Program-made: the position numbers and the translations under genes | Notes under the pieces: generated by a model | Database searches by the model: none | What the model was told of the DNA's origin: nothing | The model's input: only the letters and a program-made list of their open reading frames with translations | Shown here: positions 14,276 through 61,654 of the stretch, one piece after another | Layout: each line of letters begins with the position of its first letter | Position numbering within the stretch: position 1 is the first letter of the stretch | Assembly: GCA_000004985.1 (NCBI GenBank) | Contig: GG738858.1 | DNA length: 64,000 bases | Source: Naegleria gruberi | Lineage: Eukaryota | Direction: 5' to 3' (one strand)

Positions 14276-14348
14276 GCCGACATAGCTCAGTTGGGAGAGC
14301 GTAAGACTGAAGATCTTAAGGTCCCTGGTTCGATCCCTGGTGTCGGCA
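14276..14348 (+). tRNA. tRNA-Phe (anticodon GAA)
   Basis: 73-nt cloverleaf. Acceptor stem GCCGACA/TGTCGGC. D arm GCTC-AGTTGGGA-GAGC. Anticodon stem TAAGA/TCTTA with loop CTGAAGA, giving GAA. T arm CCTGG-TTCGATC-CCTGG with one U51·U63 mismatch. Discriminator A, then a T-run (tttt at 14352..14355) as Pol III terminator. Confidence 0.85.
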
Positions 14349-21195: not shown

Positions 21196-24100
21196 TTAAT
21201 TAACTAGTCCTATCGGAACATAGCAAACCAAACCATAAATACCTCCATCAGGAGTAGTAGTAGCCCACCAACCATATGTTGGATAAGATCCCATAAAGTA
21301 AGCATAGGTAATACTATCACCAGATGCTGGATAATAACTACTGTACCAATCCTTATAGACAATGGTACTTCCATCGGACCAAGTTGTGAAGGAGCCTTGG
21401 GAAATTTCATGTCCCTTAGTACCTAAGAAGAAGGCATTGGTTTCATTCTTTGGAAGGAGATTGTTGGCTAAGAATGTCTTTTCTGTGGCACTTTGAATTT
21501 GGACCAATGAAGCGTTTGGATGGAAATACTTGCACAAACTACTCATTGATTCAACGGCATAATAGTTTTGAAGTTTGGTAAAGTAATAACATCTTCCCAA
21601 TGATGTACTACAGCTCATCTTTCTATACCATGGATAATCAACCATGTTGACCTTTGGAGGTAGAGTTGAAGGAGCAGTAATGATACCTGATGGACCTGTA
21701 ATTGTTCCTTGAGAATATTGAGAACCACCAGCAAGGCCAAATTTGATAATACCTTCTGGAATGTCTCCTGCAATCTTGAGTGTGTAAATCTTGTAGGAAC
21801 CTGGTGCAATAGTGTATGAGCTAGGCAATGACAAGTAGGTGAAACCAGTGAGTCCAGTAATTTGATCAGCACCAATGTAAACAGGGAAGCTTGGTGAATA
21901 ATCATGGAAGGCATCTTGGTTGTATCCTGCTTGTAATTCGAGAGTGAATCTAGTAAGTGCAGGTGATCCAGTAGCAACACTAATATTGTATGTGAAAACA
22001 GTAACTGGAGAGGAAGCGTTCAAGAATGTGGCAGTAGAAGAGGTCTTACCCAAATATTTAACAGAGTAACCACTGCTAGCTAATGGAACGAGTACATTGG
22101 TCTTGGATGTGTCAACAATATTACATGAGTTATCAATAATGGTTTGGTAAATGTTACTCAAATCGTTCCAATTTACCAAGACAAGATTATTTTGATCATA
22201 GTTCATCTTTTGTACTTGAATTTGACCATAACTATCCGTTACAGCAGAGCCTATTCCGATAGCAAGCTGTCTCCAATTCCAAACTGAGCCATAGAGTGAC
22301 ATTTCAGCATTATTAGAGCCACCAATTGACCAAGAGTTAATATCAACTGATCTAACAGTGGCATCAGAACATGGATTACAACGAGATCTATCATCATACC
22401 ACGAGCAAACAGTACAATCTGCGCCTGGGAAGCGAGGGCTCTTACAATAGGATGGGGAAACACCATAGTTTCCAGGATTTGATGAATAGGTTGATCTACA
22501 GCTACCACAAGAGCATGGGTCATTTGAGAGACCATCAGTAATGTGAATCAATAACTTTTGAGAAATTGACTTTCTACCAGAGGCCAACATCATATTAACT
22601 GCAGTATTAATACCTGAAATTGAGTTGGTACCAGATTGAATTTGGGCCATATTCTTGATGGCAGTTAAAACACTAGATTGACTTGTACCAGACTTCAAAT
22701 CCAAGTGAGTTGTAATAGTTGAGGCAAATTGAATAATACCAATGTTTGTTCCAGTTGGAGAGATGTTTGATCCAAAGCCTGTTGTCAAATTGGAAGCAAA
22801 GTTCTTCATGTTAACAAAGTTATCAGCTGTAATACTTCCAGAACCGTCAATAACAAATATGATATCCAAGTTAAGACCGCATTGACACTTGGTGTATTGA
22901 ACTGAGACAACAGCTGATGCTGAGGTACCATCTTGATCTGATTGGATACTGTAAACAAACTTTTGAGTATTACAACTTCCAGTAACTGGATAAACTCTGA
23001 TAATTCTATTGTTGGCAGGATCGGCTGGGTTGAGGATGGCTGGAGTGCCTGATGTACAATATGAGGAATCACCTGATGGACAAGAAATTCCAGTGAAAGT
23101 GAATGTACCACCAAGAGAATCATAGTCATTGCTCAACAAACTTGATACAGAGATATCAATATAGGTATTGAATTGTGTTGATACAAAGTCATTGACAGCA
23201 ACAGGAGGAGAAGCAAGAGCTGAAATTCCAACTTGAACATTCTTAGTAATTGGATTTCTTGCATCAGAATCAGAAACAGCTAAAACAAAGTTACAACTTC
23301 CAAGGAATGTTGCTACTCTCAAAAACTTGACTTGATTGCTGGCAATTGTCAAGGATTGAAGAACGGTGCTATTACAAGTTCCAACATCTGCAATACTCTT
23401 CAAAACTAGAGTGTCTGCAGTGTCGGCATCCTTTGAAGATGAGAGAGAAATATAATCAAATGAAATATAATTATTACTAGCTCTAGAAATTGAATAGACA
23501 TAAGTGTAAGCATTCAAGGTTGGAGCTTGATTAGGTTGAGCAATAATAATCTTACAAATGGCAGTTTGTCCAGCAGTGTTTGTCAAAGAATAGGAAGCAT
23601 AACAATCACTATTTGATGATGAGGTACTTGCTGGAGTGTATGTCAATTTACCAGTAGAGGATGAGATGGAACCAACACCATTAAGAGTAGCAGTGTTAGT
23701 GATAGCCATTGTGACTGGTTCAGAACCAACCTTTGCTGTTAAACTTGTCTTTAAAGCATCTTCAAATTGAGTAGCAGCAGAATTCTTTGTAGTGGAAATT
23801 GTGTAATCAAGACATCCGAAAGAATTACCAGTGATTGTAACAGTGTAAGTGTAGGTTGAAGTTAATTGACCATCAGTCAAGGTGAAAGAGAATTGCAAAG
23901 TTCCCAAATAAGTAGTAGCATAAGTAAGCTTTACAGATCCATCAGAGTTCAACAAGACAGAGGCACCAGTGTTTTGAGTAATCATACTAACACTTGAAAC
24001 AGTAACTGTATCACCATCAGCATCACTTGCACCTGTCAATAGATCAGTGAAAGTATAAGTTGGATTGGAATAACTTCTTTCAATGGTGGTAGTCTTTGCA

Positions 24101-27100
24101 CTTCCAGTTGGAGGTGTATTTCTAATGACTACAGACATGGTAGCATAAGTTGCAACTTGAGCACCATCATAACAACTAAACTTAATGGAGTCTGTAACAT
24201 ATCGTGTTCCATTAGAAAGAGTGGTTGTGTAAGAAATTGAGGAGCTTGGTGTGTAAACAAGAGATCCAGTAGTGTAATCCGAAACAGTTGTTGTACCATA
24301 TGAACCTTGACCAACTCCAAACAAAGACAATGAATCGCTATCAGCATCATAACAGTATTGAGAAACAACATTTGTCAAAGACAAAGTGTTCTTCCAACCA
24401 ATAGTTTTAGAGAATGAAGTAGCTTGAGGAGCAGTATTGGTAAAAACAAGGTTAACAGTGGCAATATTAGAGGTGGCAATTTGATCAGTAATGGTGTATT
24501 GGAATGAATCAGTACCTGGACCATTAATGAAGGTATTCATATAGAAAACAGTTACCAAATCACTTTGTAAAACAAGGGCGGTATTACCTGTTGGCAATTG
24601 AGCACTACCAAAGTTAACATTATTCAAATTCAAAGAATTAGAACCCAAACTCATGATAACACCATACATGTTAACAACATTGAAGTTAAGTTGACCATAG
24701 GTAAGGACATGTCCATAGAATGTACCTTGAATACCTGCAGCGCCAACAATCCAGAAAACGTTCAAGTAACTAGCACCATTCTTGAAACTCCAACTAAAGT
24801 TAGCATTCAAATTTGTGGTGGCAACAAAGATAAAAAGACCACTTCCACTCAATTCAATTTTACCATTTCCATTGAGACCTTGAGAGAAACAATATACACC
24901 TGGAGTAAATGACAAAACACCTGAAGATGGGAAGTTTTGATCAAGAGAGGCAACACAAGACTTTTGTGAAAGATATTGGTAGAGATTTGAGGCAGATGTA
25001 ACAACAGATGAGTAGGCAGCGTTGTTGACACTCAAAGTACCAGTTGGTTTAAGAGCTTGAGCAGTGAAACCAGCAGTGGCAACGCTTCCAGGAACAACCA
25101 AATTGGCAAAGTTATTACAAATGGTTGAACCCTTAGAAATAACAATGTAATCTCCGATACCATTGTATGAACTGACTAAGCTTGATGGATATAACTTGTT
25201 AATATAAATATAATCACCATCAACATCATAATCGTTCAAAACAGGTTTCAAATACAAGGTATTATTGGTCCAGTGTTGAGTGAATGTATTATCAACAGCA
25301 ACAGGAGGAGTATTAGTAATGGTAATGGTAACAGTATTGGTAACACTTGAGAAACCATCAGTTACAACATAGGTGAATGAAGTAGTGAACCCAGCAGTTA
25401 GAGGAACTGGTGTGTACTTGACAAAAGTGGAATTAACAGAAGCAACAGCACCAGTATTTGGTTGAGTGAATGAAACAATGGTCAATGAATCACCATCAGC
25501 ATCAGTAACTCCAGACATCAAATCAATACTGAGGCCACTTTGAACCTTAGCCCAGTGACGACTGAATGTTAATGGAGTTGCTGTAGGAGCGCTATTGGAA
25601 ATAGTAACAAAGATTCCCTTTGATGCAGAAACTCCCATTCCATCAGTTACAGTATAGTTGAAGAATTGTGATGCAGAGTTTCCATTAGAATTGGTGAATG
25701 TGAATGATTTCTTGTCACCACTCAAAGCAACAGTACCTGCACTTGGATTAGTGAATGATGAAATAACAAGATAGTCTCCATCCTCAGTATCAGCATCAGT
25801 TGGCTTGAGAGAATCAGCTCTACCAATAACTGGAATAGAAATTGAGGAAGTGTGACCAGATACAACAATATCTTTAGCAACTGGAAGATTGTTATAGATA
25901 ACAATGCTGAATGTTGCACTTGAAGTGGACCACCCATCAGTGAATGAAACAGTAACGGAATCAGTACCAGTGTAAGCACTATTGACCTTATAGTTAATGG
26001 TGTTTCCTGAACCAAGAGAAGCAACACCAACCAGTGTCTTTGTGACAGCAGTTAAGGTAACAGCATCACCATCAGCATCCTTAAGATAGGAAGAAAGATC
26101 AATAACAGTATTACTCAAAACAGTTCTCCAGTGATATTTGAAAGCTGCAGTAGTATTGGCTGTTGGAACACTATTCAAAATTGTAATGGAAACAGTACCA
26201 GTGACTGTATCTCTTCCATCAGTGATAATATAACTGATTGGGTTGATACTACCAACAAAACCACTGGAAGGAGTGAATTTTACATTTCCAGAGCAAGTGA
26301 CACTACCTTGAGCTGCAGTAACAGATGAAGAGCATGATTGTAATGATAATGAATCTCCATTAGCATCTGAAGAAGCAGAAACAACTTCAAATGTTAAACC
26401 ATTCTTAGCTGAAGACCAAGAACCGACAAATGATTGTGAATTTGTTGTTGGAGCAGTATTGGTAACAGTAACAGTAACAGTTGATGTTGAAGTGGCAATC
26501 TCATCAGTGATTGTATAGTATACAGTATCTGTAGATGGAGCAGTTCTTGGATAGTAAGTAATGTTGGTTGAGGTAAATGTTGGTGACAAAGGAGCTAATG
26601 AACCATAAACATTAGTAACTCTCAATGGATCAGACTCAGCATCAGTATCGTTAGCAACAACATTCAAAGTGTAAGAAGCAACGTTCCAGTGAGTAGTGAG
26701 CTTATCTGGAACAGCTACTGGGGCAGTATTGTAAACAATCAAGTTGACAGTTGTGGTAACTTGACCGTTTGAAGCACCATCAGTAACAATGTACTTGAAT
26801 GAAAGTGAACCCACAAAGTTTCCAGAACCAAGGATTTTGACAGACTTGCTATCCAAAACAGTTACGGAACCAACACTTGGTTGAGAAGCAATTGAAACCA
26901 AACTCAATGAGTCGCCATCAGTATCATAATCAGCTGGAGCATAATTTAAGATATCAATTTCAATACCTGCCTTGAAAGTTCTCCATGGAACTGAAATAGT
27001 CTTGGTTTGAGAAGTTGGAGCGTTGTTTACAACAGTTACAGAGATTGAACTAGTTGAGCTCTTCATAGAGTCAGAAACTCTGTAGTTAGCAGTGTAAACA

Positions 27101-30100
27101 CCAACAGTGTTGGATGCAGTGAATGTGGCAATATTTGAAGAAACAGACAATGATCCCTTACTTGGTTGAGTATCTGCTGAGAAGGACAAGTTATTGACAT
27201 CCAATGGATCAGCATCAGAAGTGTAACTAGTCAAGTTGAAAGCAACACTTTGTCCGAAATGGACTGTACCTGTAATTGCTTGAGCTGTTGGGGCAGTATC
27301 ATAAACAGTCATGGTGAAGACAATGTAACTATTACCACTGCTTGTGTAATATTTCAATGTAAATTGTTCATTACCCAAATAGGATCCAGAAGGTTTATAG
27401 GTAACAGTCTTCAAATCAGAAGAAACACTTACTATACCCCCGTGGTTTGGATCAGATAATGGTGTTTGATCGAGAGTTGTACCAGTCTCTGAAAGCTTAT
27501 CGAGAGGTAAGAATACATATCCAACACTTGAGTATCTGAAATGAACATTGTAGTATTGTTCAGTACTGGATGGAGAAGTTGATGTAATGTTAATCTTCAA
27601 GTAACCAATTGATGTAGTCAATCCATCACTAATGGTATATGGAACAGTGTCAACACCCAATGACTTGACTAAGCTTGGGTCAGGGAAATAGACAATTTTA
27701 CCGTCAGATGGTTGGGCAGCACCACTGCCAAACATGCTTGAAGAACCTACATTCTCAATCTTCAAATATGGAACATCTTGAATGTCAGAATCAGTTGCTA
27801 AAGAAATAACGTCAATAGTGATACCATATTGAATGTTACCACCAGAGTAGGTCAAGGTAAGATTGGCAGCAACTGGAGCATTATTGTAAGAGTTTGTGGT
27901 CAATGTGGCAGAAGATGACTCAAAACCATCTGAGAGAATAACCTTACAAGCATCACTTGATGCAAATGCACTTCTCAAATATTTAACACCCTTGATTCCA
28001 TTTCCTAAATCAACAAGGGAGCAATAAGAGCTGGAACCAGTGTTGAATGAGAGTGAATAATAATCACCATCAGCATCTGTGAGAGTATTGTAAACAGTGT
28101 AAGAAACTCCATTTGTTTGAACAGTTCTCCAATGAGCAGATGTAGATTGATCACTGATAGATGGCTTATTAGTATTGACAATGTTGACTGTAACAGTGGA
28201 AGCTGAGGAGTAGAGAGCTCCATCATATGCCTTGTAAGTGAATGTCTTGGCTCCAAGGGTTGGTGGATTCTTCAATGTATATCTGAGTAAATTATTTACA
28301 ATGCTTAATGATCCTTCACTAACAGATGATGGGTTAGTAACAGTGAGGGCATCATTATCAGCATCAATATCATTAGACAAGACATTAATATCAACGAATG
28401 AAGTATTCCATTGGACAGTAACAGTATCACTATTTGCAACTGGTGCGTTATCAGTACAGTTGACTGTAACAGTGTTGCTTGCGGTTTCAATACCATCAGT
28501 GATTCTGTAAGTGAAAGAGTAAACTCCAATAGAAGCACTTGATTGTTTGTAAACCAACTTGGATGAAACAACAGAGGCAGATCCTTGTGATGGAGCTGAA
28601 ACAATTGGTGTGGTATCAAATGCCAAACTGTCACCATCAGAGTCCGAACATTCACTCAAAATGTCAATGGAAATACCAGAAACACAAGTGGACCACTTGG
28701 ATACAATATTCTTTGAAACTGCTGTTGGAGCGTAATTTTGAATAGTAACAGGATAGGAGGCAGTCTTACTGATCCAACCATCTGTGTAAGAAATGGTCAA
28801 TTGAGAAGCTCCTAACTTGACAGTTTTTGGAAGATTCCAAACAATAACCTTATCAGAATTAATAGTTGGAGTACCATAAGAGCTGTCATATGCAGAAATT
28901 GAGAAAGATACAGAATCACCATCACTATCGGAAATACTTGAAGAAATATCAATAAGAGATTGATTCTTGGTCCAGTGAATACTTGTTGGGAATGGTGTGG
29001 CAATTGGAGCGGAATTTTGTACATCGATATTCCATTTGGCAACACTATTCAATAAGCCATCAGTAAAAGTAACAGTTACAACACATACACCAGTACTTCC
29101 TGCTGCACTAGTGAAAGTAACAGTGGAGGTGGTGTAGGAAACAGAACCACAACTAGAAGTTGAGGCTCCCTTAACAACAACTGTATCTTCAGAGTCAGAA
29201 TCAGTGACGTTGAACCAAGCAATAGCATTCTTAGTATATCCATTGCTTACATCAGTAAAATGTCTTGTTTCAGAGATATCATTTGAAACTGGAGCGTTAT
29301 CATAAACTATAACATTGACAGTGACAATAGAAAAGCTTGAACCATCAGTGATTTGAACCTTGAATGAATCACTTCCCAAGTATCCAGCATTTTGCTTGTA
29401 AATAACGTTTGGAATTGTAGTAGCATCACCATTTGAGATTGTAATACTACCGTGTGCTGGAGCTTGATCTGGAGTGGTAACAATTGACAATGAATCACCA
29501 TCGTTATCAACAGGTTGAGCAATACTGAAAATGTTAATTACAGAACCAGTGGATTGAGTGCTCCAGTGAACAGTCTTTGAGATGGTCTTATCTTGTGGCT
29601 TGTCATTATTTGTAACAGTAATAGAAACAGAAGCAATATTACTTGTTGAAGGACCATCAGTACAAGTGTATGTAAAGTTTTGAACTCCCAAACCAGAAGA
29701 ACTTGGAGTGAAGGAAACAAATGACTTGGATGAATCCAAAACCAAATTACCAGCAAATCCAGAAGAAGTAGTGAATGATTTGATAGCGATTGGATCAGTG
29801 TCAGCATCAACATCATTGGTAAGGAGATTTAATTGCTTGTTGGAAATTCTCCAATGCATTGTATATGAATCGTCATTGGCAACTGGTGCAGTATTAGTAA
29901 CTTCAACATTGACACTACCAACAGTTGATTTACCATAATCAGAAACAACATAAGTGAATGAATCAGTACCAACAAAGTTATTGGCCTCGATAGAAGTATA
30001 GACCAAACCATCAGTTCCATCACCAAGTGTAACACGAGAGACTGAACCCTTAGAACCTTGAGTGAATGAAGCAATATGGAGTGAATCACCATCAGCATCT

Positions 30101-32550
30101 GTACATGATGTTAATACAGGAATGTTAACAGATGATGAACGCCAATGAGTACGAGCAGTGACATCACCAGCAACTGGAGCAGTATTAGAAACAGAAACAG
30201 TTACAGTGGCAGATGAAACAGAAACATCCATACCATCTGTACAAGTGTAAGTGAAGGTATCATTACCAACGAATCCATTACTTGGAACGTAGAGAATGGA
30301 CTTTCCACCTTGATAAATTGAAACAGTAGCACCATTATTGGAAGTATAGGAAACAGAGTTAACAGTGAGAGAATCACCATTGATATCCTTGTCATTATCG
30401 AGAACATTGATAACAACACTTCTATTCCATGAAACAGTTGCTAAATCATCAACTGGAACAGGAGCATCATTGACAACATGAACAGTGACAACAGCCTTAT
30501 TGGAAACTAATTTTTCAACATCAGCAACATCAAATTCGACATAGTCAACATAAACTGAAGACAAAGCAGTATAATTAGCATAATCATTACCAGGTGTGAA
30601 ACTAATAGACAATCCATACGTGCTTTGAGAAAAACTATTATAAGTAATCTTATCACCATTTGGATCATAACTGTTCAAGATTGGATTAATAGAAGAAGTT
30701 AAACCCTTTGAAACTGTAAAGCTTGAAGCAACAGCAACAGGAGCAGTATTAACAACCTTAATAATTACATATCCAGTACGATTGAATGTGCCTTCAGTGC
30801 TTCCATCGGCATTGGTATTAATGACAATGTATGAAGCAACATCTTCACCTGTGAAATCATGAGCTGGTTCATAAAGGGTATTGTTATCGTCTAGTCTGGT
30901 AATTTTACCTCCATTCAAAGTGGTAGCAGAGACAAAATTAAGCTTCAAGACATCACCAGATTGACTGTAATCATTGCTGATAACATCGACAGTGACTTGT
31001 CCATTCTTTTGACAAGTTGCTGTATCATTGACTGGAATAGGAGGAGAAGGAACTACATTGATAGTAATAGTGGCAAGTACAGAATCAACACCATCACTAA
31101 CTTTGACTTTGAAGGATTCAGAGTAGACAACACCTTGCTCTGGAGTGTAAAGAAGAGTATAGGCATTGCTATTAACTTGATAAAAGTCACCACTTGGATA
31201 GTAAACGCTTTTAACAGAAGTAACAACAGACAAGGAGGAAGAACCACGAGTCAATTTGGTAGTTGGAGTCAACGTAACAGTATCCAAGATATCTTCATCA
31301 GAGAAAGTCAAATCAATGAGATTATTCTTTGAATTCTTTGGAACATCAATAGTCAAATCCTTTGCAGAAGGAGGCAAGTTGACTATTTTGATAAAAACAA
31401 ATGAAGAGCTTGTGAGTGCTCCATCTGTAATAGTGTATTCGAAAGCATCACTGGCAGGAGTTGAAATGAATGGCTTTGGAATATATTGCAAGAAAGCACC
31501 TTGAGCACCAACAAGAACAGTACCAGTAGAACCGAGACCAGTAGAACCTGAAACAATTGTAATATTATCACCATTGATATCATAATCGTTTGACAAGACA
31601 CTCAAAGTTGCCATGGTATTCTTATTAACAGTATAGGAATCTGGCTCAGCAGTTGGGGCATCATTTGCAACAATAATCTTGAGAGTAGCTGTTACATTGG
31701 AATAACCATCTGATACAGTATAGTTAAGCTGCTCTTCATTATTAAAGCCATAAGCAGGAGTATAATAAACAAACAATTCATCAAATGAAATGGAACTTCC
31801 CTCAGAAACAGAACCACCCAATGAAGTAATAAAAAGTGTATCTCCATCTACATCAGAAGTCATTCCTCCATTTTCAGTAACAAAGTTGAAAACATCAAAA
31901 TTATTATTCTTTGAATTCTTATTGACTGTATATTGCAAATCAACAACATCTGGAGCACGATTCAAAACTTGGACATGGATTTTTGCTGTGGCAACAGTCC
32001 ATGAATTGGTGATGGTATATTCTAATGTATCATTTCCTGCAAAACTTCCACTTGATGTGTAAACAATTGTATTCTTGGCAGATAACACAGCTTTACCATG
32101 AGCAGGTTGAGTAATATTGAGAATTGTTAAATTTGAAGATCTAGTATCATAATCATTAGAAAGTGGATAGAAATTTGAAGGCACTTTCTTATAAACTTGA
32201 TAATAATCATCCACAGCAACAGGATTGTAAACTGTTGCATTCAAAGTTACCATCAAGATGGTAGCAACAACACTGGCAACAACAAGACTTGAAATAACAG
32301 CACCTATAACAGTTTGACTAATAGTGCCTCCCTATTGAAGAAGATGAAAGGATTCACAAACATGATATTCGAAACAATGTTAAAAATTACAGAAACATGA
32401 AGAACCATCATGGAACATTATATTTCCATCAATACGCATTAGCAAAGGCTATTCGAAACTAAGTATCCTACAAACCTTCAAGAGGGAAATATTGGCTGTA
32501 AAGCCTGTACGAGACACAGTTGAAGAACCCAACACAGTACCTGCAGGCAT
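21196..32550 (-). CDS. Giant (about 3,711 aa) predicted type II membrane adhesin-like protein. It has an N-terminal cytosolic tail plus signal-anchor TM, about 25-30 tandem cadherin-like/bacterial-Ig-like repeats, an embedded DUF3494 ice-binding-like beta-helix, a VWA domain and a C-terminal C-type lectin domain. Exon 1 is 32476..32550, intron 32332..32475, exon 2 is 21196..32331.
   Basis: An uninterrupted 11 kb ORF. Exon 1 (MPAGTVLGSSTVSRTGFTANISLLK, gtttgt donor) splices to GGTISQTVIGAVISSLVVASVVATILMV (TM) in frame. The repeats follow the pattern VxNxAPVA..D..T.HW…ID(V/I)L.ND.D.DGD.L.I… and end …Y.VTDG…S…V.V.V. The DUF3494-like segment runs PGVYCF…LFIFVATTNL…NGASYLNVFWIVGAAGIQGT…GHVLTYGQL, at about 24560..25160. 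The VWA/MIDAS motif is DIIFVIDGSGSI…HITDGLSND, at about 22480..22900. The CTLD runs CYYF…WSDGS…WY…C at 21196..~21640. Confidence 0.8.
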
Positions 32551-35402: not shown

Positions 35403-35473
35403 GCATTAGTAGTGTAACGGTATCATACCAGCCTTCCAAGCTGGTGACCCGGGTTCGACTCCCGGCTAATGCA
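35403..35473 (+). tRNA. tRNA-Gly (anticodon UCC)
   Basis: 71-nt cloverleaf. Acceptor GCATTAG/CTAATGC. Anticodon arm CCAGC-CTTCCAA-GCTGG, giving TCC. T arm CCCGG-GTTCGAC-TCCCGG, discriminator A. Closely parallels eukaryotic tRNA-Gly-TCC. Confidence 0.85.
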
Positions 35474-59788: not shown

Positions 59789-61654
59789 ATGAAAAGAAAG
59801 CAATTCGATGATGAGAAACTACCCACCAGCAAGAAATTAAAAGAATGCCCACAAATAACAAGCAGTGCTGTTTCTTGTGTACTTGATGAAAGTTTCGGAT
59901 CAAATTTTCTCCACATTAAATTTACTTTAACCAGAAAATCAATAATCAAGTGGAAAACAAATATTCCCTCTGATTTTATTCCTATTGAATATTATTTTGA
60001 TAAAGAATTTGTTATGGAGGTGGTAAAGAAGGATGGATATGAACTCAGGTGTGCTTCACATGAATTGACAAATGACAGACAAGTTGTTTTGGAGGCAGTC
60101 AAGAATAATGTAAATGCTATTTGGTTTGCATCTGCAAATTTGAAAAATGACAAGGAGTTTATAAAACTTGTGCTGGAAAAAGAAATTAATCATGAGGAAT
60201 TCATATATGGATCAGTACTCGCTTGTTTGTCGAATGAATTAAGAAATGACAGAGAAATTGTTTTACAAGCAGTAAAACAACATGCGTTTGCATTGGAATT
60301 TGCCTCACGAACATTACAGAATGATTACAATCTTGTTTTGAAAGCAGTTCAACTCCATGGAAGTTCACTCACAAAAGCTTCTTTAGAGTTGAAAAACAAC
60401 AGAACAATAGTATTGGAAGCAATCAAAAGAAATGGATCAGCATTCAGATATGCCTCAAAGAAATTGAGAAATGACAGACAAGTTATTTTGGAGGCAATCA
60501 AGACCTATGATCAAACACTTTACTTTACCTCAGAAGAACTGCAGAATAATAAGGAATTTATTTTAGAAGCAGTGAAAATGAATGGCTGGATACTTAAATG
60601 TACATCAAGTGAATTGAAAAATGATGAGGAAGTTGTATTGGAAGCAGTAAGACGAAACAGACAATCACTAAAGTTTGCTTCTGGAAAATTGCAGCAAGAT
60701 ACTGATTTCGTTTTGAAAGCTATTACGCAAAATACAGAGGCACACCAACTTGACTTGGACGGTGATGCAATAATTATTGAACGACAGCATATTTTGGATG
60801 CTATTAAGAAACAAGACGGAACTGTTATTCAAACAATACCAAGTCCATTTCAAAACGACAAGGAAATTGTAATGGAAGCAGTTAAACAAAATGGGTTAGC
60901 GCTAAAATATGCCTCACATGAGCTTCAGAATGATACTGAAATAGTTTTGGAAGCTGTTAAAAGAAATAATTATGCTCTCAAATATGCCTCAATGGAATTG
61001 AGAAATAACAAACAAGTTGTCTTGGAAGCAGTTAAAAGTCACTCAAACGCGCTCAAATATGCCTCAGAAGAGCTGCAGAATGATAAGGAAATAGTTCTAG
61101 AAGCAGTTAAACAAAGTGGATATACACTCAAATATGCCTCCACCGAACTACAACACGATAAGGAATTAGTTTTAATAGCGATTCAACAGTATGGAATTAT
61201 TTGCCCAGAGGAGTTTAGTAATGATAGGGAATTTCTTTTGCAAGCTGCTAAACCAAATGGACGTTCTGTAATGGAATTTGTTTCGAATGAATTAAGAAAA
61301 GATCAACAATTTATTTTGGAGCTGGTTAAACGAAATGTATTAGAAACTCATTATCTTCCAAATGAATTTAGACATGACATGAAACTTATGTCTGAGATAG
61401 TTAGACACAATGGAGTAGCATTGAAATACAGTTCAGAAGAATTGACAATTGAAGAAAAATATATTTTGGAAGAAGAAGCAATTTTACAAAATGGATTTTG
61501 TTTGGATTTTAGTTTTGAAAAATTTTGTAAAAGGATCACACGAGAATATCCTGAATTATACTTGCCAAATTACAAGTTTAAACATTTGGGTGTTGATTTT
61601 CATGTATTGAATGCGCCATTTAGCGTTCCTAATGTAGCAAAGTTGTTCTATTAG
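59789..61654 (+). CDS. DUF4116-repeat protein (at least 13 tandem ~30-aa repeats)
   Basis: Repeats of the form EIVLEAVKQNGYALKYASEELQNDKE recur throughout, which is the DUF4116 pattern. Single exon, ATG at 59789. Confidence 0.55.
   Translation: MKRKQFDDEKLPTSKKLKECPQITSSAVSCVLDESFGSNFLHIKFTLTRKSIIKWKTNIPSDFIPIEYYFDKEFVMEVVKKDGYELRCASHELTNDRQVVLEAVKNNVNAIWFASANLKNDKEFIKLVLEKEINHEEFIYGSVLACLSNELRNDREIVLQAVKQHAFALEFASRTLQNDYNLVLKAVQLHGSSLTKASLELKNNRTIVLEAIKRNGSAFRYASKKLRNDRQVILEAIKTYDQTLYFTSEELQNNKEFILEAVKMNGWILKCTSSELKNDEEVVLEAVRRNRQSLKFASGKLQQDTDFVLKAITQNTEAHQLDLDGDAIIIERQHILDAIKKQDGTVIQTIPSPFQNDKEIVMEAVKQNGLALKYASHELQNDTEIVLEAVKRNNYALKYASMELRNNKQVVLEAVKSHSNALKYASEELQNDKEIVLEAVKQSGYTLKYASTELQHDKELVLIAIQQYGIICPEEFSNDREFLLQAAKPNGRSVMEFVSNELRKDQQFILELVKRNVLETHYLPNEFRHDMKLMSEIVRHNGVALKYSSEELTIEEKYILEEEAILQNGFCLDFSFEKFCKRITREYPELYLPNYKFKHLGVDFHVLNAPFSVPNVAKLFY

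What the first reader, a model, noticed from the sequence alone, without database searches (positions are those of the whole stretch)
24560..25160. DUF3494 ice-binding-like beta-helix embedded inside the adhesin
The segment …FTPGVYCFSQGLNGNGKIELSGSGLFIFVATTNLNANFSWSFKNGASYLNVFWIVGAAGIQGTFYGHVLTYGQLNF… matches the core of DUF3494 ice-binding proteins. For example Typhula/Colwellia IBP reads LTPGVY…AVFIFQIGSTLTT…LINGAQAKNVFWQVGSSATLGT…FQGNILAQ. DUF3494 domains are patchily distributed in bacteria, fungi, diatoms and algae, often through horizontal transfer. Here the domain sits inside a surface adhesin rather than a small secreted IBP. That would imply ice or crystal-surface attachment, or a repurposed beta-helix ligand-binding face.
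Basis: partly seen in the sequence, partly recalled or inferred. Interest (0 to 1): 0.75.

Follow-up and report, generated by a model that had tools for sequence, protein, structure and literature searches.

The report
Ice-binding-like domain inside amoeba adhesin
A giant cell-surface protein of a Naegleria-like amoeba carries a divergent "ice-binding-like" (DUF3494) beta-helix that buds out of a loop of one of its Ig-like stalk repeats, the way bacterial giant adhesins display their ligand-binding domains, so it is probably an adhesion module and probably does not bind ice.

Summary
The quoted peptide is residues 2450-2525 of an 11-kb minus-strand ORF (window 24682-24909). When excised, the segment passes the Pfam PF11999 threshold (32.0 bits against 28.7). 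Every sequence match to a solved structure is a DUF3494 ice-binding protein. An AlphaFold model (pLDDT 91-97) matches 31 DUF3494 crystal structures and nothing else.

New findings:
- The window is eukaryotic and Naegleria-like, not bacterial.
- The gene has a 5' exon, a 144-nt intron and an N-terminal membrane anchor, giving 3,736 aa. It has about 30 cadherin-like Big_9 repeats, a VWA domain with an intact MIDAS motif, and a lectin-like end.
- The 195-aa domain (24604-25188) is inserted in a loop of repeat 26. Deleting it in silico restores an intact repeat (82.6 bits). Bacterial RTX adhesins present ligand-binding domains through the same "split-domain" arrangement.
- A collinear N. gruberi ortholog keeps the insert without indels (69% identity against 64% overall). 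N. gruberi paralogs fuse the same domain to a hydrolase-like domain and to EGF/REJ modules.

Ice binding is unsupported. The domain is Thr/Ala-poor and Asn/aromatic-rich, lacks T-A/G-X-T/N motifs, and N. gruberi is not ice-associated. The most likely role is an adhesion module with an unknown ligand. I class it as a new variant of a known kind, of moderate interest.

The parts
32476..32550 (-). Exon 1 of the giant gene (MPAGTVLGSSTVSRTGFTANISLLK), the short cytoplasmic N-terminus.
   Evidence: Read from the sequence. Spliced to exon 2, it aligns without gaps to the annotated N. gruberi ortholog N-terminus: 62% identity over 105 aa.
32332..32475 (-). Spliceosomal intron, 144 nt, GT...AG, 31% GC, with in-frame stop codons.
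   Evidence: It is required to join exon 1 to the long ORF in the way the N. gruberi ortholog is joined.
21196..32331 (-). Exon 2, the long open frame including the stop codon. The whole protein is 3,736 aa. ORF numbering as given by the ORF listing starts at 32256.
   Evidence: It is collinear with N. gruberi XP_002672240.1 at 63-64% identity.
32248..32313 (-). Hydrophobic segment TVIGAVISSLVVASVVATILMV, an inferred signal anchor (type II membrane anchor).
   Evidence: 22 uncharged hydrophobic residues read from the sequence, conserved in the N. gruberi ortholog. The membrane topology is inferred.
25324..32223 (-). Stalk of about 25 tandem cadherin-like / Big_9 repeats of about 95 aa each, each carrying a DxDxDGD-type motif.
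   Evidence: Pfam Big_9, Cadherin_4 and Cadherin_5 hits with 19-25 stretches. Repeat map from an HMM built on the protein's own repeats. Repeat 25 models as a 7-strand beta-sandwich with pLDDT 96, closest to cadherin-like domains.
25189..25317 (-). N-terminal part of split repeat 26 (ORF residues 2314-2356; strands A-C, ending ...DGDYIYINKLY).
   Evidence: 85% identical to N. gruberi, the most conserved segment measured.
24604..25188 (-). DUF3494 / Ice-binding-like beta-helix insert (ORF residues 2357-2551, 195 aa). The core runs from 'DYIVISKGS' to 'NLNNVNFG'. Cysteines C2434 and C2456 are conserved.
   Evidence: PF11999 at 32 bits. PDB sequence hits are all IBPs. The AF2 core has pLDDT 91-97. 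The top 31 Foldseek hits are all DUF3494 structures. Boundaries come from the paralogs and the excision scan.
24445..24603 (-). C-terminal part of split repeat 26 (ORF residues 2552-2604; strands D-G).
   Evidence: 75% identical to N. gruberi.
22900..24441 (-). Five further, more divergent Ig-like repeats between the split domain and the VWA domain.
   Evidence: (own-repeat HMM).
21997..22866 (-). von Willebrand factor A domain with MIDAS motif DGSGS...T...D and a Cys-rich insertion of about 75 aa.
   Evidence: Pfam VWA at 85 bits, covering profile positions 1-117 of 174 only. The MIDAS motif and the insertion were read from the sequence.
21199..21630 (-). C-terminal C-type-lectin-like domain (borderline match).
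   Evidence: PF00059 at 22.5 bits against a cutoff of 22.6. This is the least conserved part against N. gruberi, at 45% identity.

Best explanation
The flagged stretch encodes a divergent but genuine DUF3494 ('ice-binding-like') domain: a triangular beta-helix with a flanking alpha-helix.

Its host is a nuclear gene of a Naegleria-like heterolobosean amoeba. The protein is 3,736 aa, with this layout:
- a short cytoplasmic tail and a single N-terminal membrane anchor;
- a stalk of about 25 Ca-motif-bearing cadherin-like (Big_9) repeats;
- a distal ligand-binding region.

In the distal region the 195-aa beta-helix is inserted into the loop between two strands of repeat 26. That repeat becomes a 'split domain' from which the beta-helix buds sideways. 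Five more repeats follow, then a VWA domain with an intact metal-ion site and a Cys-rich insertion, then a lectin-like end.

Shown here: domain identity, fold, nested position, gene structure, conservation in N. gruberi, and reuse of the same domain type in other secreted N. gruberi proteins.

Inferred: the protein works as a eukaryotic fibrillar adhesin. The stalk holds the binding region away from the cell. The beta-helix uses an exposed flat face to bind an ordered or polymeric extracellular ligand, such as a prey-bacterial surface, biofilm matrix or substratum, alongside the VWA and lectin-like domains. Ice is unlikely to be the ligand.
For: Domain identity:
- PF11999 scores above its cutoff.
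- All PDB sequence hits are IBPs.
- The AF2 core has pLDDT 91-97.
- Foldseek's top 31 PDB hits are all DUF3494 structures (target-normalised TM 0.58-0.75), followed by a drop to E>0.1.
- 55 of 55 aligned relatives match PF11999.

Nested insertion:
- Before excision the two flanking pieces score 49 and 27 bits and overlap in HMM coordinates.
- Deleting residues 2357-2551 gives one full-length repeat (HMM positions 1-89) at 82.6 bits.
- That spliced repeat aligns end to end with 24 intact repeats.
- The junction maps to the loop between strands 40-44 and 51-54 of a beta-sandwich model with pLDDT 96.

Split domains as markers of ligand-binding domains: PMC12077191 states that ligand-binding domains of RTX adhesins emerge from Ig-like split domains. 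[quoted passage not shown]

Eukaryotic, extracellular context:
- The neighbouring genes are eukaryotic.
- The intron and membrane anchor are confirmed by the N. gruberi ortholog.
- The VWA domain has a MIDAS motif.

Selection: the insert is 69-71% identical to N. gruberi with no indel over 195 aa. The split halves are 85% and 75% identical, against 64% overall.

Modular reuse:
- The same subfamily domain sits at the C-terminus of a signal-peptide-bearing PhoPQ-related hydrolase-like protein in N. gruberi.
- It also lies between EGF and REJ modules in another N. gruberi protein.
- In an environmental contig it is fused to an S8 peptidase.

Against ice as the ligand:
- There is no T-A/G-X-T/N motif.
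- Thr is 5.6% against 13.4+-2.9% in other family members; Asn is 11.8% against 5.3+-1.6%.
- The AnpIBP residues S153 and T156 align to Ala and Ile.
- DUF3494 proteins occur in many non-freezing habitats.
- IBP-fold domains act in adhesion in a temperate diatom.
Against: - No ligand is known and no binding assay exists, so the adhesion role rests on architecture and analogy.
- The Big_9 flanks in the two-domain model were low-confidence (pLDDT <50). The geometry of the beta-helix relative to the split repeat is therefore not modelled.
- The AF2 alignment consisted of DUF3494 members, so the fold prediction is not fully independent of the sequence evidence.
- The Thr-poor, Asn-rich composition may partly reflect the AT-rich (34% GC) genome.
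- FfIBP itself has 'GNLN' where this domain has 'TNLN', and some active IBPs (AnpIBP) lack repetitive motifs. Sequence alone cannot exclude ice binding.
- The species of the window is not identified. Some Naegleria live in cold soils and polar sites (own knowledge).
Confidence: 0.6

Rival explanations
1. It is a true ice-binding module. On this reading the protein is an ice adhesin that tethers the amoeba or its cyst to ice, or protects the surface during freeze-thaw, like SfIBP_1 of Shewanella frigidimarina or MpIBP of Marinomonas primoryensis.
For: - It belongs to the family whose characterised members all bind ice.
- Giant adhesins with ice-binding domains exist (PMC5550230, and Vance 2018 as cited).
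- Active IBPs such as AnpIBP have no repetitive ice-binding motif.
- FfIBP has 'GNLN' at the position of the conserved 'TNLN'.
Against: - There is no T-A/G-X-T/N motif.
- Thr content lies below the minimum of 112 other family members, while Asn and aromatic content is about double theirs.
- Positions equivalent to AnpIBP S153 and T156 are Ala and Ile.
- The ortholog is in N. gruberi, a temperate soil and freshwater amoeba (own knowledge).
- The same domain is fused to hydrolase-like and EGF/REJ modules, which have no obvious link to ice.
- DUF3494 is common in non-freezing habitats.
Confidence: 0.12
2. It is a structural element or evolutionary relic. On this reading the beta-helix is a rigid spacer or kink, or a decaying insertion with no ligand of its own.
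For: - The Pfam score is only just above threshold, and the N-terminal third of the profile is not matched.
- No binding site can be named.
Against: - The insert is conserved at 69-71% with no indel over 195 aa, between species whose protein is 64% identical overall. The flanking split halves are the most conserved segments measured.
- The core model is confident.
- The cysteine pair is conserved across the subfamily.
- The same domain type is retained in at least three other protein contexts.
Confidence: 0.1
3. It is an artefact. On this reading the match is a chance similarity in a low-complexity repeat protein, or the gene is bacterial contamination in a eukaryotic assembly.
For: - The whole-protein Pfam scan did not report PF11999.
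- Big_9 and 'tandem-95' repeats are typical of bacteria. A bacterial locus, Actinoplanes siamensis, shares 32% identity with three of the repeats.
Against: - Several sequence and structure searches all point to DUF3494.
- The gene lies between eukaryotic genes: Alg9, RGS and CCCH zinc-finger proteins.
- It has a GT-AG intron and a membrane anchor that match an annotated N. gruberi gene.
- Its GC content of 37-38% is close to that of its surroundings.
Confidence: 0.02

Closest known systems
DUF3494 / Pfam PF11999 ice-binding proteins (e.g. AnpIBP 7BWX, FfIBP 4NU2, IBPv 5UYT, ColAFP 3WP9, TisAFP 3VN3)
   Same: It is homologous in sequence. The predicted fold is the same: a triangular beta-helix with a long alpha-helix. 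The family signatures are present: PGVY, NGA..NVFW.VG and F.G..L.
   Different: - It is far more divergent: 32 bits, against roughly 100-280 bits per domain for typical members.
- It is shorter, at about 180-195 aa.
- It is Thr/Ala-poor and Asn/aromatic-rich, with no T-A/G-X-T/N motif.
- It is nested inside another domain of a 3,736-aa membrane-anchored eukaryotic protein.
- No ice-associated ecology is known for it.
Bacterial RTX / fibrillar adhesins with split-domain-presented ligand-binding domains (AhLap of Aeromonas hydrophila, FrhA of Vibrio cholerae, MpIBP of Marinomonas primoryensis)
   Same: - It has a long stalk of tandem Ig-like extender repeats with Ca-type motifs.
- Its ligand-binding region lies near the far end.
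- A beta-solenoid domain buds out of a split Ig-like domain.
- It has a vWFA domain that itself carries an insertion.
- Foldseek lists the FrhA split-domain structure 9y9w among the matches to repeat 25 (rank 39).
   Different: - It is eukaryotic.
[quoted passage not shown] The signal itself was not searched for.
- It is anchored by an N-terminal transmembrane helix, not by an outer-membrane retention module.
- The budded domain is DUF3494, not an RTX beta-roll, a carbohydrate-binding module or a PA14 domain.
- The C-terminus is C-type-lectin-like.
SfIBP_1 of Shewanella frigidimarina (DUF3494 plus tandem beta-sandwich domains; PDB 6BG8)
   Same: It combines a DUF3494 domain with tandem Ig-like domains in a surface protein proposed to be an adhesin. 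6bg8 is among both the fold hits and the profile hits.
   Different: SfIBP_1 is a much smaller bacterial protein from a cold-adapted species. I found no report that its DUF3494 domain is nested inside a Big repeat; the held literature describes the beta-sandwich domains as accompanying or flanking it. The DUF3494 domain of SfIBP_1 is reported to bind ice.
Diatom Trailins / Choice-of-anchor-A domain (Pfam PF20597 pAdhesive_15)
   Same: An IBP-fold beta-helix is used in an adhesive extracellular protein of a temperate, non-ice eukaryote. It probably derives from bacteria and lacks ice-binding motifs. This is the nearest functional precedent.
   Different: It is a different Pfam family: the window domain hits PF11999 and gave no PF20597 hit at E<=10. 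Trailins are secreted trail proteins with PTS-rich regions, not membrane-anchored Ig-repeat stalks, and have no split-domain nesting.
Naegleria gruberi XP_002672240.1 (NAEGRDRAFT_72752, 'predicted protein', 2,816 aa)
   Same: It is a collinear ortholog with the same N-terminus, repeats, split repeat with insert, VWA domain and C-terminus. Identity is 63-64% overall and 69-72% in the insert module.
   Different: It is shorter, with fewer repeats in the deposited gene model. It is uncharacterised, and a whole-protein Pfam scan does not report the Ice_binding domain for it either.

Membership tests
DUF3494 / Pfam PF11999 (Ice_binding) | Score against the family HMM at or above the curated gathering threshold | tested here: met
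   32.0 and 32.4 bits against a cutoff of 28.7 for the excised segments; 31.4 bits for the 301-aa segment. The hit was not reported when the whole 3,686-aa ORF was scanned.
DUF3494 / Pfam PF11999 (Ice_binding) | Coverage of the whole domain profile (about 208 positions) | tested here: inconclusive
   Pfam aligns only positions 59/73-195 of 208. The subfamily profile aligns over positions 6-193 to IBPv. Paralog P0002 covers Pfam positions 15-192.
DUF3494 / Pfam PF11999 (Ice_binding) | Fold: beta-helix of triangular section with a long alpha-helix packed along one face, and coils stacked so that the first and last coils are adjacent | tested here: met
   The AF2 core has pLDDT 91-97, with an 18-residue helix between the first strands and the main stack. 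The top 31 Foldseek PDB hits are all DUF3494 structures, with target-normalised TM up to 0.75. Caveat: the alignment used for modelling was made of family members.
DUF3494 / Pfam PF11999 (Ice_binding) | Ice-binding activity (thermal hysteresis, ice shaping, recrystallisation inhibition) | not testable with these tools
   This needs recombinant protein.
DUF3494 / Pfam PF11999 (Ice_binding) | Flat B-face rich in small or hydroxyl residues, FfIBP-type T-A/G-X-T/N motifs, and the AnpIBP key residues S153/T156 | tested here: not met
   - There are no T-[AG]-x-[TN] motifs, against a mean of 2.5 in 112 relatives.
- Thr is 5.6% against 13.4%.
- FfIBP TGIN and TAVT align to GQLN and GSNS. AnpIBP S153 and T156 align to A and I.
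- This feature is not universal among active IBPs.
Bacterial RTX adhesins (LapA / MpIBP / AhLap type) | Tandem Ig-like extender repeats forming a stalk | tested here: met
   About 30 Big_9 / cadherin-like repeats. Repeat 25 is modelled at pLDDT 96.
Bacterial RTX adhesins (LapA / MpIBP / AhLap type) | Ligand-binding domain emerging from a split Ig-like domain | tested here: met
   In-silico excision restores a full repeat at 82.6 bits. The spliced repeat aligns with 24 intact repeats. The insertion point lies in a loop of the modelled sandwich. The criterion is taken from PMC12077191.
Bacterial RTX adhesins (LapA / MpIBP / AhLap type) | C-terminal RTX nonapeptide beta-roll and type I secretion signal; N-terminal retention module; Gram-negative host | tested here: not met
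   There is no GGxGxDxUx nonapeptide in the protein and no HemolysinCabind hit. The N-terminus is a transmembrane anchor. The host is a eukaryote. It therefore works like an RTX adhesin but is not a member of the family.
Choice-of-anchor-A / pAdhesive_15 (PF20597) | Match to the PF20597 HMM | tested here: not met
   No PF20597 hit at E<=10 for the excised segment. HMMER filters may hide very weak hits.
Fibrillar adhesins in the sense of Monzon and Bateman | Stalk-domain repeats, plus at least one adhesive domain, plus a surface anchor, in a bacterium | tested here: inconclusive
   The stalk, the adhesive-type domains (VWA and Ice_binding; IPR021884 is called an 'ice-binding adhesive domain') and the anchor are all present. 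The class is defined for bacteria and the host here is eukaryotic.

The most novel reading that the evidence does not exclude
Naegleria-type amoebae may possess a eukaryotic counterpart of the bacterial RTX/fibrillar adhesin blueprint: an extender stalk, a split-domain-presented binding module, and a vWFA domain with an insert. It could have been assembled from bacterially derived parts and re-anchored by a eukaryotic transmembrane helix. Within it, a lineage-specific, Asn-rich branch of DUF3494 would serve as a portable non-ice binding module, also fused to hydrolase-like, peptidase and EGF/REJ proteins, for example to capture prey bacteria or biofilm polymers. If so, this would give an experimentally tractable, mesophilic eukaryotic system for asking what DUF3494 domains bind when they do not bind ice. 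It would also be an exception to the statement that eukaryotic DUF3494 proteins occur only in ice-dwelling species.
Probability: 0.35. Interest if true: 0.7.

Novelty: new variant of a known kind. Interest (0 to 1): 0.5.

Why it matters
DUF3494 is the most widespread family of microbial ice-binding proteins. Most of its members have never been tested, and many come from habitats that never freeze, so the family's original or alternative substrate is an open question (Raymond 2024).

This locus bears on that question in four ways:
- The domain is in a non-ice eukaryote.
- It is under visible constraint.
- It is displayed in the way bacterial adhesins display ligand-binding domains.
- It is reused in several other secreted proteins of the same lineage.

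That gives a concrete candidate for a non-ice function and a defined construct to test: the split repeat plus its insert.

The locus also shows that the 'split domain marks a ligand-binding domain' rule, worked out for bacterial RTX adhesins, applies to a protist surface protein. It may be relevant to how Naegleria attaches to prey or substrata.

A practical lesson follows for annotation. Whole-protein HMM scans miss this domain, both here and in the N. gruberi ortholog, so domain-wise scanning of giant repeat proteins is needed.

Tried and rejected
1. The search for homologous proteins with the single domain found nothing. With the subfamily alignment it found only 3 distant proteins. Its word index did not return the N. 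gruberi proteins that the full HMMER search found.
2. Exact look-ups of window proteins and of P0001 in the contig index found nothing, so the source record was not identified.
3. Two attempts to give the AF2 alignment coverage of the split Big_9 halves failed, one using triple-repeat rows (A3) and one using half-repeat rows (A4). MAFFT laid the repeats over the beta-helix or piled everything at the N-terminus, so these alignments were not used.
I modelled the intact neighbouring repeat 25 and mapped the junction onto it instead.
With a narrow alignment it found only about 30%-identical metagenome fragments and no bacterial genome relative of the Naegleria-type domain. No donor lineage can therefore be named.
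6. The N. lovaniensis ALG9 locus did not reach any Big_9 gene, and synteny is rearranged there. Presence of the insert in thermophilic Naegleria could not be checked.
7. No match in the phage collection.
8. Enzymatic beta-helix relatives (pectate and alginate lyases) appear only at Foldseek E>1, so I rejected them.
9. The plus-strand ORF 24598-24912 (104 aa) is antisense to a conserved coding region, so I treated it as spurious.
Full report
**1. What is at the coordinates**

The plus-strand reading of 24560-25160 is full of stop codons. The region lies inside a single 11-kb open frame on the minus strand, 21196..32256, of 3,686 aa.

A Pfam scan of the whole ORF lists 19-25 stretches each of Big_9, Cadherin_4 and Cadherin_5, plus one VWA domain. 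It does not list PF11999. When the segment is excised, PF11999 'Ice_binding' scores 32.0-32.4 bits (E about 1e-7), above the curated cutoff of 28.7, over profile positions 73-195 or 94-195 of 208. NCBIfam gives only a weak IBP hit.

Further searches agree with the Pfam result:
- phmmer against all PDB sequences returns nine hits, all ice-binding proteins. The best is AnpIBP 7bwx at E=4e-6.
- A profile of the closest relatives returns 23 PDB hits, all DUF3494 IBPs. The best is IBPv 5uyt at E=1.3e-16.
- A full HMMER scan of 1.84 billion representative proteins gives 124 hits at E<=1e-3.
- All 55 members of the alignment I built from those hits match PF11999.

**2. Fold**

I ran AlphaFold2 on ORF residues 2314-2614 with that 55-sequence alignment. 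The core, about residues 2358-2553, has pLDDT 91-97. It has an 18-residue helix followed by a stack of short strands. The flanks were below 50 because the alignment did not cover them.

A Foldseek search of the PDB gives 31 hits at E<=4e-5. Every one is a DUF3494 crystal structure: AnpIBP, EfcIBP, IBPv, FfIBP, ColAFP, TisAFP, LeIBP, FcIBP, SfIBP_1 and Cryosericum IBP. Target-normalised TM-scores are 0.58-0.75. The next hit has E=0.1.

**3. The host is a eukaryote, and the gene model can be completed**

Neighbouring ORFs encode Alg9 mannosyltransferase, an RGS protein, a CCCH zinc-finger protein, queuosine salvage, MFS and DUF4116 proteins, many with N/Q-rich tracts.

The best relative of the domain is Naegleria gruberi XP_002672240.1, a 'predicted protein' of 2,816 aa. 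It is collinear with the window protein at 63-64% identity. The window's Alg9 is 70% identical to N. lovaniensis, 62% to Willaertia magna and 44% to Acrasis kona. The source is therefore a Naegleria-like heterolobosean. It is distinct from N. gruberi NEG-M and N. lovaniensis, and the exact species was not identified.

The ORF as listed has no plausible start. Upstream I found an ATG exon (32550-32476, MPAGTVLGSSTVSRTGFTANISLLK). A 144-nt GT...AG intron follows (32475-32332), and the frame continues from 32331. The spliced N-terminus aligns without gaps across the junction to the annotated N. gruberi N-terminus, at 62% identity over 105 aa.

It contains a 22-residue uncharged hydrophobic segment, TVIGAVISSLVVASVVATILMV. 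I infer that this is a signal anchor. The full protein is 3,736 aa.

**4. The domain is nested in a split Ig-like repeat**

An HMM built from the protein's own repeats maps about 30 repeats. Around the flagged region it finds two partial matches whose HMM coordinates overlap:
- residues 2316-2389, HMM positions 1-78, 49 bits;
- residues 2539-2602, HMM positions 32-89, 27 bits.

Paralogs that lack any Big_9 context show that the stretch 'DYIVISKGS...' already belongs to the beta-helix domain, which ends at '...NLNNVNFG'.

I scanned possible excision boundaries. Deleting residues 2357-2551 leaves a single full-length repeat (HMM positions 1-89) scoring 82.6 bits. That is higher than most of the intact repeats. 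It aligns end to end with 24 intact repeats, with no gap at the junction.

The neighbouring intact repeat 25 models as a seven-strand beta-sandwich at pLDDT 96. It is closest to cadherin-like domains. The insertion point corresponds to the loop between strands 40-44 and 51-54.

The 195-aa domain (window 24604-25188) is thus an insertion in a surface loop, and repeat 26 is a 'split domain'. My attempts to obtain a confident two-domain model failed for alignment reasons. The relative geometry is therefore not modelled.

**5. Rest of the protein**

After five more repeats comes a VWA domain (85 bits). It has an intact MIDAS motif, DGSGS...T...D, and a Cys-rich insertion of about 75 aa. A borderline C-type-lectin-like C-terminus follows (22.5 bits against a cutoff of 22.6). 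There are no RTX nonapeptides.

**6. Conservation and relatives**

Per-segment identity to the N. gruberi ortholog:

| Segment | Identity |
|---|---|
| Insert (no indel in 195 aa) | 69% |
| Insert core | 71% |
| Split repeat, N-terminal half | 85% |
| Split repeat, C-terminal half | 75% |
| Whole aligned region | 64% |
| Lectin-like end | 45% |

The module is at least as constrained as the rest of the protein.

The same subfamily of the domain occurs in several other contexts:
- at the C-terminus of a signal-peptide-bearing N. gruberi PhoPQ-related (hydrolase-like) protein, at 51% identity;
- between EGF and REJ modules in another N. gruberi protein, at 42% identity;
- in environmental proteins, including an S8 peptidase fusion that appears to be split by an intron.

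Two cysteines (C2434 and C2456) are conserved across the subfamily. Outside this group, identity falls to about 30%. No close relative was found in 185,579 bacterial and archaeal genomes or in the metagenome contig scan. No donor lineage can be named.

**7. Does it bind ice?**

This cannot be decided by computation, but the indications are negative.
- The insert has no T-A/G-X-T/N motif, against a mean of 2.5 in 112 other family hits.
- Thr is 5.6% against 13.4+-2.9% (minimum 6.5%). Ala is 7.2% against 13.0%. Asn is 11.8% against 5.3+-1.6%. Phe plus Tyr is about double.
- By alignment, the FfIBP motifs TGIN and TAVT correspond to GQLN and GSNS.
- By alignment, the AnpIBP residues S153 and T156 correspond to Ala and Ile. 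Mutating those residues cuts AnpIBP activity to 17%.

There are caveats. The genome is AT-rich, which favours Asn, Phe and Tyr. FfIBP has 'GNLN' where this subfamily has its conserved 'TNLN'. AnpIBP has no repetitive motif. I had no model coordinates with which to check the B-face.

On ecology, N. gruberi is a temperate soil and freshwater amoeba (own knowledge). Raymond (2024) notes that bacterial DUF3494 proteins occur in many non-freezing habitats. The same paper says that the eukaryotic ones known so far all come from icy habitats.

**8. How it most likely works**

[quoted passage not shown] These project the domain away from the fibre axis. [quoted passage not shown]

The window protein reproduces this layout: stalk, split domain with a budding beta-solenoid, then a vWFA domain with an insert. 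It has a eukaryotic transmembrane anchor where the bacterial proteins have an outer-membrane retention module. It also has no RTX beta-roll, the part that ends in the type I secretion signal in AhLap.

Two precedents show IBP-like beta-helices used for adhesion:
- Pfam holds a 'putative ice-binding-like adhesive domain' family, PF20597, seen in hit P0040.
- Temperate diatoms use an IBP-fold domain in their adhesive trail proteins, without ice-binding motifs.

I therefore favour a non-ice adhesion or ligand-binding module on a fibrillar adhesin-like surface protein. My confidence by step:

| Step | Confidence |
|---|---|
| Domain identity | about 0.95 |
| Nested position | about 0.9 |
| Adhesive function | about 0.55-0.6 |
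| Ligand is not ice | about 0.8 |

Rivals are a true ice adhesin (0.12), a structural spacer or relic (0.1), and an artefact or contamination (0.02).

**9. Novelty**

Several elements are already known:
- DUF3494 combined with Ig-like domains in bacterial surface proteins (SfIBP_1);
- the split-domain rule;
- IBP-fold adhesion domains in a diatom.

The ortholog has been in the N. gruberi genome record as an uncharacterised 'predicted protein', and whole-protein Pfam scanning misses the domain there too. A full-text search found no paper linking Naegleria with ice-binding proteins.

Three things appear new:
- a PF11999-family domain in a heterolobosean not known to be ice-associated;
- its nesting in a split cadherin-like repeat of a eukaryotic, transmembrane-anchored protein with an RTX-adhesin-like layout;
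- a lineage-specific, Asn-rich subfamily reused in several secreted proteins.

I rate it a new variant of a known kind, of moderate interest.

Noticed in passing
window 21997-22866 (-): The VWA domain of the giant protein has an intact MIDAS motif (DGSGS at ORF residue 3137, then T, then D). A Cys-rich insertion of about 75 aa follows 'HITDGLSND', and Pfam VWA covers only profile positions 1-117 of 174. This resembles the vWFA-with-insertion of the A. hydrophila RTX adhesin.
   Followed up: partly
window 21199-21630 (-): The C-terminal ~145 aa look like a C-type lectin domain, but PF00059 scores 22.5 bits against a cutoff of 22.6. This is the least conserved part against N. gruberi, at 45% identity.
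   Followed up: partly
window 32332-32550 (-): The long ORF lacks a start codon of its own. A 75-nt first exon and a 144-nt GT-AG intron complete the gene. The listed TTG start at 32256 lies inside the transmembrane segment.
   Followed up: yes
whole giant ORF 21196-32256 (-); N. gruberi P0001: A whole-protein hmmscan fails to report PF11999 both for the window protein and for its N. gruberi ortholog. The domain is seen only when excised. Automated annotation of giant repeat proteins probably misses such inserts.
   Followed up: partly
proteins P0006 and P0007 (same 5,284-bp JGI metagenome contig): P0006 is an S8 peptidase carrying the N-terminal half of a Naegleria-type IBP-like domain. P0007 is a 71-aa protein carrying the C-terminal part of that domain. 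Together they look like one eukaryotic gene split by an intron, so the domain is also fused to a protease in an uncultured relative.
   Followed up: no
L006 (N. lovaniensis PYSW02000035.1, 340742-362773) versus window 5156-46190: Synteny is rearranged. In N. lovaniensis the queuosine-salvage and CCCH zinc-finger genes lie 4-6 kb from ALG9. In the window they are about 38 kb away, with the giant gene in between. Whether N. lovaniensis has the giant gene elsewhere was not determined.
   Followed up: no
window 14276-14348 and 35403-35473 (+): There are two tRNA genes, tRNA-Phe(GAA) and tRNA-Gly(TCC), in intergenic regions.
   Followed up: no
window 59789-61654 (+): A 621-aa protein consists of 13 DUF4116 repeats (PF13475, 498 bits).
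   Followed up: no
window 22001-32000: The giant gene is slightly GC-richer (37-38%) than its flanks (31-35%) and shows a sustained positive AT skew on the plus strand. This is consistent with a long, compositionally biased (Ser/Thr/Asn/Val-rich) coding region.
   Followed up: no
L007 (Actinoplanes siamensis NZ_BOMW01000033.1): A bacterial locus encodes tandem repeats 32% identical to three consecutive repeats of the window protein. This fits a bacterial origin of the repeat type, but a single hit does not establish horizontal transfer.
   Followed up: no
window 24598-24912 (+): A 104-aa TTG-initiated ORF lies antisense to the beta-helix coding region. It is most likely spurious.
   Followed up: no
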